Source: a virus
Lineage: Duplodnaviria > Heunggongvirae > Uroviricota > Caudoviricetes
Length of the DNA: 51,169 nt
IMG/VR virus record: IMGVR_UViG_2541047830_000012
Direction: 5' to 3' (one strand)
The notes under the pieces: model-generated
What the model saw: only the letters and a program-made list of their open reading frames with translations
What the model was told of the DNA's origin: nothing
Databases searched by the model: none
Translations under genes and position numbers: made by a program
In this document: positions 14,397-44,323 of the stretch, piece after piece
How the letters are laid out: every line of letters starts with the position of its first letter
How positions within the stretch are numbered: position 1 is the first letter of the stretch

Positions 14397-14567
14397 GGTA
14401 TCCTGCTCAAAACTAAGGAGGTTGGAGGTTGGTGTGCTTGAATGGTTTCTGTTGGCTGCATTAGTCGTTTCTGGTTGGGTGTATGAGTATCGAATGCACT
14501 CTTATTAGACGTCAACTAGTTTTGCCGACTCGCGCCAACTATACTGGCCGCACCCTTCAGTGCGACA

Positions 14568-15323
14568 TCAAGTCGCGCTTGTTACTGCCTTCGCTGTCTT
14601 TTTCCTGTAGCTTTCACCTTTCAGTTCGAACATATATCCGTGATGGATCAGCCGGTCTGCCGCCGCCACCGCCATAGTCTCATCCACGAAGATGCTGCCC
14701 CACATGCTGAACGGATGGTTACTGGTTATCACCAGGCTCCCACGTTCATAGCGATGCGCTATTAACTCGAACAGTACTCCCGTTTCGGCGCTGTCGCGTT
14801 TGACATAGCCAAGATCATCCACCACTATCACCCGGTAGCGATCCAGTTTCAGTAGCAGCTCATTCAGTTTCAACTGCGCTCTGGCTTTACGTAGTTCCTG
14901 CAACAACTCTCCTGCGCTGTAGAACCGGGCCCGGTAGCCCTGGCCTACTACGCCATCCACGATCGCTGCCGCCAGATGGCTTTTCCCCAACCCGCTGGCT
15001 CCGAACAGCAGAACGTTTTCTCCTGCATCAACCCAGTCTGTCGTTTCACAGAGTTGCCGGAACTGAGCTCCATTCAGTTCCGGCACCTGACTGAAGTCGT
15101 ATTCGCTTAGCGTTTTGGCAACTGGCAACCGGGCCTCCTTTTTATAACGACGCAGTTTTTCACTCTCGCGCCACAGGAGTTCTTCATTGCATAGCGTCAG
15201 AAGATAGCGCGATGGTGTCCAGCCTTCTGCCAGTGCTCGTTTTTCCAGAGCGTGCCATTCAGCTCCAACTCGTGTCAGGCGTAGTTTACGCAGGCTGCGT
15301 TCAAGGTGATGGATATTGCTCAC
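14568..15323 (-). CDS. istB: IS21-family helper ATPase IstB
   Basis: Walker A GASGLGKSHLA and Walker B VIVVDDLG; typical IstB length. Confidence 0.9.
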   Translation of the reverse strand: MSNIHHLERSLRKLRLTRVGAEWHALEKRALAEGWTPSRYLLTLCNEELLWRESEKLRRYKKEARLPVAKTLSEYDFSQVPELNGAQFRQLCETTDWVDAGENVLLFGASGLGKSHLAAAIVDGVVGQGYRARFYSAGELLQELRKARAQLKLNELLLKLDRYRVIVVDDLGYVKRDSAETGVLFELIAHRYERGSLVITSNHPFSMWGSIFVDETMAVAAADRLIHHGYMFELKGESYRKKTAKAVTSAT

Positions 15324-16819
15324 TGCGAACCTCCCTTGCCACGCAGTAGTTGCTCATAACTGCTCAGGTTATGCTGTTTCACATTGACTACCGGCAACGC
15401 CTTTTCCTTTATACCCAGGAAGCGCATCAGCCGGTGCAGATCCACGTTTCCCGGGGTATTCAGCATCTGCTCCATACCTTTTGCCACGACTGAGATATCG
15501 TCGTATCCTGCAGCCAGTTTCAGAGCATGTACCATCAGCCTGCCTGCCATGTCGGGTTCCAGATGATTACATAAGCGACGCCACAGCCTCCGCCATTCAT
15601 CGTCTGGCAGGATGTCATTTCTCAGCGTTGCATGGCAGAACGCACCGGGCTTTTTTGCCAGACTGTCGATCACATGTCGGAAGTCGATACGACGGGCCCG
15701 CGTCTTCCCTTTTTCTGGTCTGACACGTGGGCAGCTCATGACCTCGCTGCTGCCAACGTAACAGCTCAGACGATCGTCCCATAACCGGACCCGTAACAGT
15801 TGACCTACAAGCCGGGAAGGTACGCTGTAGACGACGTGCTTCACATTGATGGTACTGCTGCGGCTAACCCTCACAGTCAGCTCATCATAGTCAGCACTGC
15901 GACGAAGCGGCAGCGGTTTCAGATGAAGACGTTCTTCCTTGACCAGATCCTGATTGTTACGGTTGTGCCGCATAACCTGCTGAGTGATGAAGGCCTGATA
16001 TTCTTCTATGGTGCTGAAGTCGTTACTGCCCCGCAGTATCAGCGCCTGACAGATACGCCTTTTCAGATGTCCGTGGGCACTTTCAACCGAGCCATTTTCG
16101 TGGCCCCGACCGGCATTATTGTGTACGCCCTGCATTCCGTAGTGCTGACAGAGAGCAGCATAACGCTCAGTCAGCTCGCGGCGTCCATCTTCGCCCTGTT
16201 GTTTCCATGCTGCCCTCAGGCTGTCCGTTTTATGTTCTACCGGCACTCCGCCCAGTTGTCCGAGGGCTTCCTGCAGACCTTCAGCCAGAGCAGAGAAGCT
16301 CTCACCACCCAGCACAACCCGCATCCAGCTCCAGTGGCTCCATTCCAGACGGAAGTGATACAACTTATGCGCCAACAACTTACCGGCGATGGTGACAACT
16401 ACACCTTTCAGTTCAGTAAAGTCCGACAGACCTCGCAGACCGGGCTGATGTCGCTGGCGGAACATGACCTCCTGCTCTGCACCATACTGTAGCTTCCATT
16501 CGCAGACCCGCCGTTGCATTGTTCTTCGAAGGCTGTTGGGGTACTGGCCGGGATATTTATCCTGTAGCATCTCCAGCAGAGTTGTTGGTGTCAGAGCCGG
16601 CCTCTCTTTCAACAGAGGAACAAGCATGCTGTCCCACACAGCTTCCAGAGGATCTTTGCGTGTGCGCCAGTGCCGAACACTGTTTTTTGCCCACTCTCCT
16701 TTTTCGATCCGACGACCAGAACGGACTGAGATACCAGCCTTCATGGCCGAGATATGCTGAGTTATACCTTTCTTACGCTGAGTCATATAGTAACTGACCT
16801 GAGAAGTATTGAGCGTCAC
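15320..16819 (-). CDS. istA: IS21-family transposase IstA
   Basis: 499-aa ORF with N-terminal HTH and integrase-like core, directly upstream of and overlapping istB. Confidence 0.85.
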   Translation of the reverse strand: MTLNTSQVSYYMTQRKKGITQHISAMKAGISVRSGRRIEKGEWAKNSVRHWRTRKDPLEAVWDSMLVPLLKERPALTPTTLLEMLQDKYPGQYPNSLRRTMQRRVCEWKLQYGAEQEVMFRQRHQPGLRGLSDFTELKGVVVTIAGKLLAHKLYHFRLEWSHWSWMRVVLGGESFSALAEGLQEALGQLGGVPVEHKTDSLRAAWKQQGEDGRRELTERYAALCQHYGMQGVHNNAGRGHENGSVESAHGHLKRRICQALILRGSNDFSTIEEYQAFITQQVMRHNRNNQDLVKEERLHLKPLPLRRSADYDELTVRVSRSSTINVKHVVYSVPSRLVGQLLRVRLWDDRLSCYVGSSEVMSCPRVRPEKGKTRARRIDFRHVIDSLAKKPGAFCHATLRNDILPDDEWRRLWRRLCNHLEPDMAGRLMVHALKLAAGYDDISVVAKGMEQMLNTPGNVDLHRLMRFLGIKEKALPVVNVKQHNLSSYEQLLRGKGGSQ

Positions 16820-16927
16820 GCCATTTCCTGTTGGATCATGTAAATGACACTCAGGTTACAAAACCGGCCAGAATAATCGGCGCCAGGCGGACTGAGTTAT
16901 TGTCGTCTCATACACTCTCTAACAAAA

Positions 16928-40432: not shown

Positions 40433-40726
40433 TTAAAATTCCATTTGTATTTGATCAGAACGCTCGGTTGCCGCCGGGCGTTTTTTATTGGTGAGAATCG
40501 AAGCAACTTGTCGTGCCAATCGAGCCATGTCGTCGTCGACGACACCCCATTCAAGAACAGCAAGCAGCATTGAGAACTTTGGAATCCAGTCCCTCTTCCA
40601 CCTGCTGATCTGCGACTTATCAACTCCCACAGCTTCCGCTGTCTTCTCAGTTCCAAGCATTGCGATTTTGTTAAGCAACGCACTCTCGATTCGTAGAGCC
40701 TCGTTGCGTTTGTTTGCACGAACCAT
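40433..40726 (-). CDS. cII: Transcriptional activator CII
   Basis: MVRANKRNEALRIESALLNKIAMLGTEKTAEAVGVDKSQISRWKRDWIPKFSMLLAVLEWGVVDDDMARLARQVA… matches lambda CII as recalled. Confidence 0.9.
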   Translation of the reverse strand: MVRANKRNEALRIESALLNKIAMLGTEKTAEAVGVDKSQISRWKRDWIPKFSMLLAVLEWGVVDDDMARLARQVASILTNKKRPAATERSDQIQMEF

Positions 40727-40844
40727 ATGTAAGTATTTCCTTAGATAACAATTGATTGAATGTATGCAAATAAATGCATACACCATAGGTGTGGTTTAAT
40801 TTGATGCCCTTTTTCAGGGCTGGGATGTGTAAGAGCGGGGTTAT

Positions 40845-41054
<210 letters not shown>

Positions 41055-41071
41055 TTAGTACATGCAACTAT

Positions 41072-41135
41072 TATCACCGCTAGAGGTAAAATAGTCAACA
41101 CGCACGGTGTTAGATATTTATCCCTTGCGGTGATA
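41072..41135. promoter_or_regulatory. Right operator OR1-OR2-OR3 with divergent pR and pRM
   Basis: OR1 TATCACCGCTAGAGGTA (41072-41088), OR2 CAACACGCACGGTGTTA (41096-41112), OR3 TATCCCTTGCGGTGATA (41119-41135); match lambda operators as recalled, with one mismatch in OR1. Confidence 0.85.
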
Positions 41136-41142
41136 GATTTAA

Positions 41143-41859
<717 letters not shown>

Positions 41860-41977
41860 CCACAATACAACCTTGTTGTCGCAAAAAGATCGCATATGCG
41901 ATTGTTTATTAGAAATAGAAATCGCCATATAGGCGAATAGTCGATCTCAGTGCATAACATAAGGAAATCAATAACAT

Positions 41978-42883
41978 ATGCCAAATTTACCGATGGGCGG
42001 ATCGCAGGGTGAATTACCCTTAGTACCTACAGTAGAAGTTGTTGCTGATGGCATTCCTATGGGGGTGCTTAATGATGGAACCCCTTATCTAACTCTTTAC
42101 GGTTTAGCCAAATTATGTGGCATAGATGAAGCACCTCTTCGAATGTTTACATCTAACTGGGAGACTGAAAAAAATAAGCCAAGAGGACAAAAAGTAGCTG
42201 CATACTTAGCTGAGAAAGGATTTAACAACGTTGACCGACTGTATACCCGCGTCATAAATAGCTCAAACGTTGAAACACATGCTTATCCTGACTATGTTTG
42301 TATGGCTATCCTCCGTTACTACGCTCTAGATGCCACCAATTTTGATAGGTCAGTCGCAATAGGTAATTTTGTTCGCTTGGCTGAGTACACGCTTAAGCGA
42401 ATGATTTATGAAAAGTCAAATTACAACCCAAATGCTTCAATAGATATCTCATTCGAGAACTATAGAGCAAGGATTAAGCTAAACGATCAGATACCGACAA
42501 CTCATTTTGCAGTATTCAGAGAGATAGCTGACATTGCCATGAACCTGATCGGAGGAGGATTCCCAATGGATGACACCACATCTTTGGATGGAAGTGTTGG
42601 AATTCACTGGGGAAAGTATTGGACAGCTAATGGGCTATCTGAGAAATTCGGGGAAAGGGTGCAGTACCCACATCTATTCCCCGAAAATTACAGGCAGTCA
42701 GCTGCAAATAAGCATATAAAAGCTTGGATTTATCCTATTGAGGCACTTGGCGTGTTCAGAAAATGGCTACACGATAATTACGCAATGGAAAAACTGCCAA
42801 ATTACCTTGGGAACAAAAAGATTAGTAATGCCTCCGAGCTATTAGAGTTGATAAAAAAACCAGCACTCCCAAATAAGCATTGA
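41978..42883 (+). CDS. Uncharacterised 301-aa protein occupying the rexA-rexB position
   Basis: AAGGAAA RBS; AT-rich coding sequence; palindromes upstream and a GC hairpin terminator downstream; N-terminal segment IPMGVLNDGTPYLTLYGLAKLCGI weakly resembles Bro-N/KilA-N/antirepressor N-terminal DNA-binding motifs; rest unrecognised. Confidence 0.7.
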   Translation: MPNLPMGGSQGELPLVPTVEVVADGIPMGVLNDGTPYLTLYGLAKLCGIDEAPLRMFTSNWETEKNKPRGQKVAAYLAEKGFNNVDRLYTRVINSSNVETHAYPDYVCMAILRYYALDATNFDRSVAIGNFVRLAEYTLKRMIYEKSNYNPNASIDISFENYRARIKLNDQIPTTHFAVFREIADIAMNLIGGGFPMDDTTSLDGSVGIHWGKYWTANGLSEKFGERVQYPHLFPENYRQSAANKHIKAWIYPIEALGVFRKWLHDNYAMEKLPNYLGNKKISNASELLELIKKPALPNKH

Positions 42884-42897
42884 TCTCCACCACAACC

Positions 42898-42924
42898 CGG
42901 CATCTGCGCCGGGTTTTCTTTGCC
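42898..42924 (+). terminator. Rho-independent terminator after the rex-position gene (timm analogue)
   Basis: CCCGGC-atctgc-GCCGGG followed by TTTTCTTTG. Confidence 0.6.
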
Positions 42925-43071
42925 TAACGCCCCCAAAAAACACATAACCAATTGTATTTATTTTAAAATTAATAGATACAACTCGCTAAACATCGCAATT
43001 CATATCTCTCGATCACCTTCCCAATCCACACAACCCTGCAAAAAATAAATCTATATAAAAAACATACAGAT

Positions 43072-43134
43072 AACCATCTGCGGTGATAAATTATCTCTGG
43101 CGGTGTTGACATGAATACCACTGGCGGTGATACT
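43072..43134 (+). promoter_or_regulatory. Left operator OL3-OL2-OL1 with pL
   Basis: AACCATCTGCGGTGATA, TATCTCTGGCGGTGTTG, TACCACTGGCGGTGATA; -35 TTGACA (43106-43111), -10 GATACT (43129-43134); match lambda as recalled. Confidence 0.85.
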
Positions 43135-43172
43135 AAGCACATCAGCAGGACGCACTGACCACCATGAAGGTG

Positions 43173-43204
43173 ATGCTCTTAAAAATTAAGCCCTGAAGAA
43201 GGGC
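43173..43204 (+). promoter_or_regulatory. nutL (boxA and boxB)
   Basis: boxA TGCTCTTA and boxB hairpin GCCCTGAAGAAGGGC, the latter identical to lambda boxB as recalled. Confidence 0.8.
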
Positions 43205-43361
43205 AGCATTCAAAGCAGAAAGCTTTGGTGTGTGTGATACGAAACGAAGCATTGGCCGGAAGTGCGAATCCGGATTAGCTGCCAATGTGCCATTGCGGGG
43301 TGTTTTCGTTCAGGAATACGACTCCCACACACAACCAAAGCTAACTGACAGGAGAATCCTG

Positions 43362-43688
43362 ATGGATGCACAAACACGCCGCCGCGAACGTCGCGCAGAG
43401 AAACAGGCTCAATGGAAAACAGCAAACCCCCTGTTGGTTGGGGTAAGCGCAAAACCAGTTAACCGCCCTATTCTCTCGCTGAATCGCAAACCGAAATCAC
43501 GAGTAGAAAGCGTACTGAATCCGATAGACCTTACAGTGCTGGCTGAATACCACGAACAGATTGAAAGCAACCTGCAGCGTATTGAGCGCAAGAATCAGCG
43601 CACATGGTACAGCAAGCCACGCAGTGAAATGGGTGTGACTTGTGTTGGTCGCCAGAAAATGAAATTAGGCAGCAAACCACTTATTTGA
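43362..43688 (+). CDS. N: Antiterminator N
   Basis: MDAQTRRRERRAEKQAQWKTANPLLVGVSAKPVNRPILSLNRKPKSRVES… matches lambda N as recalled; start at internal ATG 43362. Confidence 0.9.
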   Translation: MDAQTRRRERRAEKQAQWKTANPLLVGVSAKPVNRPILSLNRKPKSRVESVLNPIDLTVLAEYHEQIESNLQRIERKNQRTWYSKPRSEMGVTCVGRQKMKLGSKPLI

Positions 43689-43699
43689 GAGGAATTAAT

Positions 43700-44323
43700 A
43701 TGTCATCAATCCGCTTAACTACGAGAATGAAAGAGGAAATCGCTCGTAACGCTTTAATTAAGTCTGGGGTTTTCACTGAACTTGAAGAAGTAACAAAGTT
43801 AAAGAACCAGCTTGCACTTGACGCCAGAGTTATTGCGTTTGGCGGGAAAAAGAAAACTGAGGAAGTTGATCAGTTATCATCCAAGTTGGTAGCTATAAGT
43901 GAAGAACTTGAAAAGATGGGATGTTCATTTTACTCATACGATGTTCGTTCTACTTCAATTTATCTGACTGCATCTGGCAGAAGGATTGGATGGCATTCAT
44001 ATGGGAAAGACGGCAACGGCGAAGATATATTGCTCCCTACTCCGAACAAAGATAAATGCATGTTTAGCGCAGAACACGAAATAACAAAAAGGTTTGATGA
44101 AATCTGCGCATTGCAACAAAAACTTGAAGCCAAGAAAAAGGATATCGAATCAAATGTATGGGCTGCTTTGAACTCAGTCACAACAGTTAAGCGACTTATT
44201 GAGGTTTGGCCTGAAAGCAAAGAATTGCTACCAAAAGAAGCAGATAAAGCAAGTACAGCACTTCCTGCTTTACGGGTAGAAGATTTGAATAAGATGATTG
44301 GACTTCCTTCCGAGGCCGCATAG
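43700..44323 (+). CDS. Uncharacterised 208-aa pL-operon accessory protein
   Basis: AT-rich ORF straight after N in the ral/sieB position; own terminator overlapping its stop; no recognisable motif. Confidence 0.6.
   Translation: MSSIRLTTRMKEEIARNALIKSGVFTELEEVTKLKNQLALDARVIAFGGKKKTEEVDQLSSKLVAISEELEKMGCSFYSYDVRSTSIYLTASGRRIGWHSYGKDGNGEDILLPTPNKDKCMFSAEHEITKRFDEICALQQKLEAKKKDIESNVWAALNSVTTVKRLIEVWPESKELLPKEADKASTALPALRVEDLNKMIGLPSEAA

What the first reader, a model, noticed from the sequence alone, without database searches (positions are those of the whole stretch)
41860..42924. Unknown 301-aa gene replaces rexAB between cI and pL
The flanking immunity region is lambda-like throughout (cI, OR1-3, OL1-3, pL, nutL, N). 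Where lambda carries rexA-rexB, this prophage has one AT-rich ORF (41978-42883) that I cannot assign to any family. It is bracketed by a perfect palindrome (ATCGCATATGCGAT, 41889-41902), a second hairpin (41923-41937) and a strong terminator (42898-42924), so it looks like a self-contained cassette expressed in the lysogen. The rex position is a classic site for prophage-encoded exclusion or abortive-infection functions, so this is the strongest candidate for an undescribed defence gene. Only the N-terminal 60 residues hint at a Bro-N/KilA-N-type DNA-binding fold.
Basis: partly seen in the sequence, partly recalled or inferred. Interest (0 to 1): 0.8.

Follow-up and report, generated by a model that had tools for sequence, protein, structure and literature searches.

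The report
Known BstA abortive-infection gene, not novel
The "unknown" gene that sits where phage lambda carries rexAB is a member of BstA, a prophage abortive-infection defence family described in 2021, so it is real and correctly guessed to be a defence gene but is not undescribed.

Summary
The ORF (41978-42883, +, 301 aa) is real. Aligned to lambda, window 41856-42893 replaces the cI-rexA spacer plus rexA and rexB.

It is not family-less. It matches the BstA models of PHROGs (E 5e-135) and PADLOC (E 3e-106) over its full length. It is 43% identical to the founding BstA of Salmonella prophage BTP1. It is 94% identical (residues 9-301) to the CL707/NCTC10963-type E. coli allele, BstA-Ec, which Owen et al. 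2021 showed to confer phage defence. RefSeq names the identical protein "BstA C-terminal domain-containing protein". That paper already discusses the cI-N/rexAB position.

One extension emerged. BTP1's self-immunity DNA element aba ends in direct repeats 56 bp apart around the start codon. Across 63 distinct bstA loci I find allele-specific direct repeats at the same 56/57-bp spacing (48/63; cognate versus non-cognate pairing p<=5e-5). The window has CGATCTCAG (41942-41950) and GGATCGCAG (41999-42007). These differ from BstA-Ec's ATCCCT[A/G]C boxes, which predicts a different self-immunity specificity.

The upstream palindromes are real but weak and allele-specific. The terminator is lambda's own tIMM.

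The parts
41856..42893 (.). Segment that replaces lambda's cI-rexA spacer + rexA + rexB
   Evidence: blastn against lambda: homology ends at window 41855 and resumes at 42894
41978..42883 (+). bstA coding sequence (301 aa + stop)
   Evidence: ORF list; PHROG 6287 'BstA' E 4.9e-135, full length; PADLOC BstA E 2.9e-106; 43% identity to BstA-BTP1 over 299 aligned columns; identical protein WP_001576830.1 named 'BstA C-terminal domain-containing protein'
42026..42418 (+). N-terminal domain (about residues 17-147), KilA-N/Bro-N/APSES-like putative DNA-binding fold
42425..42880 (+). C-terminal BstA domain (about residues 150-301), effector of unknown fold
41942..41950 (+). Upstream aba-like box CGATCTCAG (-36..-28 from the ATG)
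   Evidence: Matches the downstream box 7/9 at lag 57, at the same position as the boxes of other alleles
41999..42007 (+). Downstream aba-like box GGATCGCAG (+22..+30; codons G8-S9-Q10)
   Evidence: It is in register with the second CCCGCC of BTP1 aba when the proteins are aligned
41942..42007 (+). Predicted cognate anti-BstA (aba) self-immunity DNA element, 66 bp spanning the RBS and start codon
   Evidence: Inference from the BTP1 aba architecture (-29..+34, terminal direct repeats both required; PMC8585504) plus the family-wide lag-56/57 repeats
41889..41902 (.). Perfect palindrome ATCGCATATGCGAT. Its left arm plus the preceding G (41888-41894) is a third copy of GATCGCA, 55 bp upstream of the first box
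   Evidence: A third copy is not seen in other alleles; role unexplained
41923..41937 (.). Imperfect palindrome TCGCC-ATATA-GGCGA immediately upstream of the first box
   Evidence: Shared only with alleles that carry the same 5' module
42894..42924 (+). Rho-independent terminator (lambda tIMM) ending the cI-bstA transcription unit
   Evidence: It lies in lambda-homologous DNA and is annotated Timm in CL707
41146..41859 (+). Lambda-type cI repressor, presumed co-transcribed with bstA from pRM
   Evidence: 99.3% identical DNA to lambda. No sigma-70-like + strand promoter was scanned between cI and bstA. Co-transcription is inferred
43106..43134 (+). pL (TTGACA-17-GATACT), downstream neighbour
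   Evidence: lambda homology

Best explanation
The ORF is bstA, a prophage-encoded abortive-infection gene.

Shown by sequence: it is a full-length, two-domain BstA protein. It lies directly downstream of, and on the same strand as, a lambda-type cI, in the slot where lambda has rexAB, and is followed by the tIMM terminator.

Inferred from the characterised homologues (BstA-BTP1, and BstA-Ec of the 94%-identical allele type):
- It is made constitutively in the lysogen, probably on the pRM cI transcript.
- Phage DNA replication is then blocked and the infected cell dies without releasing progeny.
- The home prophage escapes its own BstA on induction because it carries a cognate DNA element, aba, spanning the start of the gene.

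I predict aba here to be about 41942-42007. It is bounded by direct repeats CGATCTCAG and GGATCGCAG, 57 bp apart. Its specificity should differ from that of BstA-Ec, whose boxes are ATCCCT[A/G]C.
For: Family membership: PHROGs BstA E 4.9e-135 over 5-301 of 301. PADLOC BstA E 2.9e-106. BLASTP to BstA-BTP1 gives 43% identity over residues 10-300, E 1e-83. Identity to CL707 orf CL70704 is 94%. The cloning primer for bstA-Ec (NW_761) matches the CL707/ECO3183 allele exactly. RefSeq product name. All 30 family-invariant residues are present in a 61-sequence alignment.

Position: cI, then bstA, then terminator, then pL and N. This is the same order as in BTP1 and as described by Owen et al..

Function of homologues: defence by abortive infection, block of phage DNA replication, and cognate DNA-based aba (PMC8585504).

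aba-like repeats: best 9-mer self-match reaches >=7/9 at lag 57 in 36 of 63 non-identical loci and at lag 56 in 12 of 63. Other lags from 30 to 90 give 0-10 loci. At least 10 different box sequences each agree between their two copies. In 33 cluster representatives, cognate pairs score 6.88 and non-cognate pairs 5.28, permutation p<=5e-5. The window's copies are at -36 and +22, lag 57.
Confidence: 0.9

Rival explanations
1. It is an antirepressor or other regulatory DNA-binding protein of the KilA-N/Bro-N class, with an N-terminal DNA-binding domain and a C-terminal partner-binding domain, rather than a defence protein.
For: Weak structural matches of the whole model to phage antirepressor, Bro-N and KilA proteins in BFVD, and to winged-helix/APSES domains in PDB.
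Against: No Pfam KilA-N, Bro-N or ANT hit even at E<=10. Full-length, high-scoring homology is to BstA, not to antirepressors. A gene made from the repressor operon in the lysogen is the wrong place for an antirepressor. BstA-Ec, of the 94%-identical allele type, confers phage defence.
Confidence: 0.03
2. Its main role in the lysogen is lysogenic conversion or virulence modulation, as proposed for the Salmonella orthologue st313-td, with phage defence incidental.
For: Owen et al. note that bstA (st313-td) had been linked phenotypically to virulence and anti-virulence in Salmonella. BTP1 records still carry the gene name st313-td.
Against: No mechanism was ever proposed for the virulence link. 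Defence was shown directly for three alleles, including an E. coli one. The covarying aba-like repeats make sense only for a function that would otherwise harm the phage's own replication.
Confidence: 0.04
3. The gene is an inactive passenger: not expressed, or non-functional, in a defective prophage.
For: The prophage in the window carries an ISEc10 insertion relative to an otherwise 99.99%-identical prophage. One E. coli genome has an IS1 inside its bstA (H50).
Against: The ORF is intact with all family-invariant residues. It is 99.5-100% conserved in 23 complete genomes. It has an RBS (AAGGAAA) and sits in the most highly transcribed prophage operon.
Confidence: 0.03

Closest known systems
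BstA-Ec (E. coli NCTC10963; same allele type as phage CL707 orf CL70704 and ECO3183 WP_000026554.1)
   Same: 94% amino-acid identity over residues 9-301, with a near-identical C-terminal domain. Same lambda-immunity context (cI, bstA, tIMM, OL/pL, N). Same length, 301 aa. BstA-Ec was shown experimentally to confer phage defence and to have a cognate self-immunity locus.
   Different: The cI-bstA spacer and the first ~20 codons are unrelated, and substitutions cluster in residues 1-95. The predicted aba boxes differ: GATC[T/G]CAG here versus ATCCCT[A/G]C there. The two palindromes are absent from the BstA-Ec type.
BstA-BTP1 (Salmonella prophage BTP1, st313-td/STMMW_03531), founding member
   Same: 43% identity over nearly the full length. 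Two-domain architecture. Position directly after the cI-like repressor. Own terminator. Direct repeats bracketing the start codon at 56-57 bp.
   Different: Different box sequence (CCCGCC). BTP1 has a P22-type immunity region with an extra small gene between bstA and N.
Lambda RexA/RexB
   Same: Same genomic slot between cI and tIMM/pL, same strand, lysogen-expressed abortive-infection function.
   Different: No sequence similarity. One 301-aa soluble two-domain protein here, versus a sensor (RexA) plus a membrane protein (RexB). BstA is reported to block phage DNA replication, whereas RexB is reported to be an ion channel that triggers loss of membrane potential. BstA has a DNA-based self-immunity element.
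KilA-N / Bro-N / APSES DNA-binding domain proteins (phage antirepressors, KilA, Mbp1)
   Same: The N-terminal beta-hairpin plus helical fold resembles them weakly. Owen et al. reached the same conclusion by remote homology.

Membership tests
BstA | Full-length sequence homology to BstA-BTP1 and the family profile | tested here: met
   PHROG 6287 E 4.9e-135, residues 5-301 on profile 3-304/304. PADLOC BstA E 2.9e-106. BLASTP 43% identity, E 1e-83.
BstA | C-terminal BstA domain (PF26567, 'BstA-like C-terminal domain') | tested here: met
   PF26567 is precomputed for the 100%-identical cluster P0001 and 111 other homologues. RefSeq product name. Invariant residues R165, E182, D204, S206, W211, W215, H232, Y252 and others are present. 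Caveat: the local Pfam-A scan gave no hit, so that copy does not appear to detect this model.
BstA | N-terminal KilA-N(-like) DNA-binding domain | tested here: inconclusive
BstA | Located immediately downstream of, and co-oriented with, the prophage repressor | tested here: met
   cI 41146-41859 (+) and bstA 41978-42883 (+). Same order in SK0189, CL707, 2013C-4538, ECO3183 and BTP1.
BstA | Own Rho-independent terminator after the gene | tested here: met
   Stem 42894-42915 plus T tract, -15 kcal/mol, z -4.1. Here it is lambda's tIMM.
BstA | Cognate aba element: about 63 bp spanning the start codon, with terminal direct repeats | tested here: met
   At sequence level only. Boxes at 41942-41950 and 41999-42007, 7/9 identical, lag 57. 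Same spacing and position as in 48 of 63 distinct loci. Cognate exceeds non-cognate, p<=5e-5. The window's match alone is not significant. Function is untested.
BstA | Confers abortive-infection defence by blocking phage DNA replication; aba suppresses it | not testable with these tools
   [quoted passage not shown] Needs plaque, replication and Southern-blot assays for this allele.
BstA | Expressed in the lysogen | not testable with these tools
   Inferred from position in the cI operon. No + strand promoter-like site or strong terminator lies between cI and bstA.
RexAB | Homology to RexA and/or RexB | tested here: not met
   Lambda homology stops at 41855 and resumes at 42894, skipping rexA and rexB. 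No Rex model among the PADLOC or PHROG hits.
KilA-N / Bro-N antirepressors | Significant match to PF04383, PF02498 or ANT-type C-terminal domains | tested here: not met
   Pfam scan at E<=10 returned 0 families. Only weak fold-level resemblance.

The most novel reading that the evidence does not exclude
The self-immunity element aba, mapped so far only in BTP1, may have one architecture across the whole BstA family: two allele-specific 7-10-bp direct repeats held 56-57 bp apart around the start codon. The downstream copy lies in codons about 8-10 of the disordered N-terminal tail. This element may recombine as one module together with the N-terminal DNA-binding domain, independently of the C-terminal effector domain. 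The window and 2013C-4538 share the 5' module but differ in the C-terminal domain, while CL707/BstA-Ec does the reverse. On this reading the window carries a third, untested E. coli specificity (GATCnCAG). It would not be cross-immune with BstA-Ec, and the box sequence could be read from any genome as an 'immunity type'. I did not find this generalisation in Owen et al. 2021 or in later papers of the held library.
Probability: 0.5. Interest if true: 0.4.

Novelty: already known. Interest (0 to 1): 0.15.

Why it matters
For the scan, this removes a false 'undescribed defence gene'. The gene is BstA, and the rex-slot synteny has been discussed in print.

What has some residual value is the side result. 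It gives a sequence rule (phased, covarying direct repeats 56-57 bp apart across the start codon) that locates the cognate anti-BstA element in uncharacterised alleles. It also suggests that the N-terminal domain plus aba is the specificity module. That makes the open question of how aba DNA silences BstA more directly testable, through box swaps, N-terminal-domain swaps and binding assays.

Tried and rejected
- Pfam-A and NCBIfam scans of the protein found no hits. The family is visible only in PHROGs, PADLOC, precomputed PF26567 and BLAST.
- A profile search of PDB sequences found nothing.
- Foldseek against afdb50 could not be run because the library was unavailable.
- Rfam on 40700-43800 found nothing at E<=1.
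- I tested whether the two palindromes are a repeated operator-like motif elsewhere in the window. TCGCNATATNGCGA with <=2 mismatches gave 3 hits against 2.2 expected, none convincing.
- I tested whether a third phased box, as at 41888, is a family feature. It is not, so I do not build on it.
- I considered GATC/Dam methylation as the common denominator of the boxes. Only 5 of 33 cluster representatives have GATC in both boxes, and BTP1 has none. Rejected as a general rule.
- Degnan et al. 2007, which first sequenced the CL707 allele, is not held.
- Two literature searches for later mechanistic work on BstA/aba returned either nothing or only papers that cite BstA in passing.

Full report
**1. 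Observation**

The sequence contains an ATG-initiated ORF at 41978-42883 on the + strand (301 aa). It lies 118 bp after the stop codon of a lambda-type cI (41146-41859) and before pL (43106-43134) and N.

A direct alignment with lambda gives these results:
- Window 40800-41855 equals lambda cro-OR-cI at 99.3%.
- Window 42894-43663 equals lambda's terminator tIMM, OL, pL, nutL and N at 91.5%.
- The 1038 bp in between replace 1404 bp of lambda: the cI-rexA spacer, rexA and rexB.

The 14-bp perfect palindrome (41889-41902) and the TCGCC/GGCGA hairpin (41923-41937) exist. As RNA structures they are weak (-6.9 and -7.6 kcal/mol, z about -2).

The terminator is strong (stem 42894-42915, -15 kcal/mol, z -4.1). 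It lies inside the lambda-homologous backbone and is annotated Timm in phage CL707, so it does not mark a mobile cassette.

The ORF is only mildly AT-rich: 41.3% GC, against 45.5% for cI and 47.8% for the window.

**2. Identity**

Other evidence assigns the protein to BstA:
- PHROGs matches phrog_6287, "BstA abortive infection system, replication inhibitor", at E 4.9e-135 over the full length.
- PADLOC matches BstA at E 2.9e-106.
- BLASTP against the founding member, BstA of Salmonella prophage BTP1, gives 43% identity over residues 10-300, E 1e-83.
- A hypothetical protein of phage CL707, a wild phage with lambda immunity, is 94% identical over residues 9-301.
- The supplement of Owen et al. 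2021 lists the primer used to clone bstA-Ec from E. coli NCTC10963. That primer matches the CL707/ECO3183 allele exactly and does not match the window.

The experimentally validated E. coli BstA is thus the sister allele of the window's gene.

In 5,426 complete E. coli genomes the locus occurs in 43: 23 at >=99.5%, 10 at about 91% and 10 at about 86%. Newer RefSeq records name the identical protein WP_001576830.1 "BstA C-terminal domain-containing protein". All but one fragment of the 113 database homologues carry precomputed PF26567.

**3. What is known about the family** (PMC8585504)

- BstA is expressed from the prophage in lysogens.
- It lies downstream of the repressor.
- It co-localises with infecting phage DNA and blocks phage DNA replication.
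- It protects the population by abortive infection.

The home prophage is spared by aba. In BTP1 this is a 63-bp DNA element running from -29 to +34 around the bstA start codon. Its two terminal CCCGCC direct repeats are both essential. It acts as DNA, and it is allele-specific.

The authors explicitly note that the cI-N interval is a mosaic hotspot and is the site of lambda rexAB.

**4. Structure**

An AF2 model built from 61 homologues is confident (mean pLDDT 85; pTM 0.52, consistent with two loosely coupled domains).

The N-terminal domain gives weak matches:
- Foldseek hits in BFVD to antirepressor, Bro-N and KilA proteins at E 1e-3 to 0.3.

**5. The aba question**

This is the only place where I could add something.

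Aligning the cI-bstA spacer and the 5' coding region of four E. coli alleles showed two 5' modules:
- The window and strain 2013C-4538 share one, including both palindromes.
- CL707 and ECO3183 share another.

At equivalent positions on either side of the start codon, the window has CGATCTCAG and GGATCGCAG, while CL707 has GATCCCTAC and AATCCCTGC. Both copies have changed together.

I then fetched 80 bstA loci from viral contigs, located the start codons and measured self-similarity as a function of lag. Among 63 non-identical loci, the best 9-mer match between an upstream copy and a copy inside the coding region reaches >=7/9 as follows:
- at lag 57 in 36 loci;
- at lag 56 in 12 loci;
- at any other lag from 30 to 90 in 0-10 loci.

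The repeated words differ between clades but agree within a locus. Examples:
- CCCGCCA in BTP1
- ATCCCTAC
- GATCCC
- TGGTGAACA and GAACAGCT
- GCAGCACCC
- TGGTCACCA
- GGGCA-CA

With one representative per sequence cluster (33 clusters), cognate upstream/downstream pairs score 6.88/9 and non-cognate pairs 5.28/9. No permutation out of 20,000 reached the observed value (p<=5e-5).

In BTP1 these are exactly the two repeats shown by mutagenesis to be required. The window's copies lie at 41942-41950 (-36..-28) and 41999-42007 (+22..+30), lag 57.

On its own the window's 7/9 match is not significant, because lags 59 and 64 also reach 7/9 in this locus. Its weight comes from sharing position and spacing with the family.

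I infer that 41942-42007 is this prophage's aba and that its specificity differs from BstA-Ec.

Protein alignment supports a modular view. The window and 2013C-4538 are identical through residue 112 and then diverge. CL707 differs mainly in residues 1-95 and is nearly identical afterwards. The N-terminal domain and the aba-like boxes are therefore inherited together, apart from the C-terminal domain. This is linkage, not proof of a functional pairing.

**6. The palindromes**

They belong to the window-type 5' module and are absent from the BstA-Ec type, so they are not needed for BstA function in general.

GATCGCA at 41888-41894 (the base before the perfect palindrome plus its left arm) is a third copy of the box core. 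It lies 55 bp upstream of the first box, giving three copies at 41888, 41943 and 42000. A third phased copy is not found in other alleles. I leave it as unexplained.

**7. Verdict**

This is a BstA gene, already known and already detected by standard defence-finder tools. Interest is low.

The most novel reading still open is the family-wide aba architecture and the modular N-terminal-domain/aba specificity, which would need the experiments listed under next steps.

Noticed in passing
window 14503-16912: A 2.4-kb IS21-family ISEc10 element (istA/istB) is inserted here. It is absent from the otherwise 99.99%-identical prophage of E. coli SK0189, where the site lies inside a small hypothetical gene. 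The prophage in the window may therefore be altered or defective.
   Followed up: partly
window, whole (from the SK0189 annotation, L087): The prophage is a mosaic. It has P22-like morphogenesis genes (portal, P22-type capsid, gp4/gp10/gp16/gp17 families, tailspike) joined to a lambda immunity region. It abuts dacD-sbmC, and no tRNA gene lies in the window. Hochhauser et al. 2023 reported that the 10 bstA-carrying lambda-like prophages found within their E. coli hotspots were all at a tRNA-Arg hotspot, so this may be a different integration site.
   Followed up: partly
window 41888-41894, 41943-41949, 42000-42006: GATC[G/T]CA occurs three times, 55 and 57 bp apart. The first copy overlaps the left arm of the perfect palindrome. 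A third phased copy is not seen in other bstA alleles.
   Followed up: yes
window 41978-42880 versus L004 2619-3518 and L002 1508-2410: Domain-level mosaicism. 2013C-4538 shares an identical N-terminal 112 aa and upstream spacer with the window but has a diverged C-terminal domain and a different repressor. CL707/BstA-Ec shows the reverse pattern.
   Followed up: partly
L010-L083, about -85 to -30 before the bstA start: Some distant alleles carry a CAGGGAA-like motif. In some the upstream box sits in a short GC palindrome (for example GGCCGATCCCGGCC or CCGATCGG). The RBS region AAGGAAATCA is unusually conserved across homologues of 40-100% identity. Strict-pattern counts among 33 cluster representatives: CAGGG motif 9, RBS pattern 12.
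   Followed up: partly
NZ_CP046259.1 (hit H50): One E. coli genome (ECO2947) has an IS1A element under the match to the 1065-bp bstA locus query. This is presumably a natural knock-out or a nearby insertion.
   Followed up: no
window 43700-44323 (+): The gene right after N is annotated in RefSeq as an 'Nmad5 family putative nucleotide modification protein'. It is followed by several hypothetical genes in the pL operon.
   Followed up: no
protein of window 41978-42880: The local Pfam-A scan returned no family at E<=10. The precomputed table nevertheless lists PF26567 for the identical protein and 111 other homologues. The local Pfam copy seems not to detect this model.
   Followed up: no
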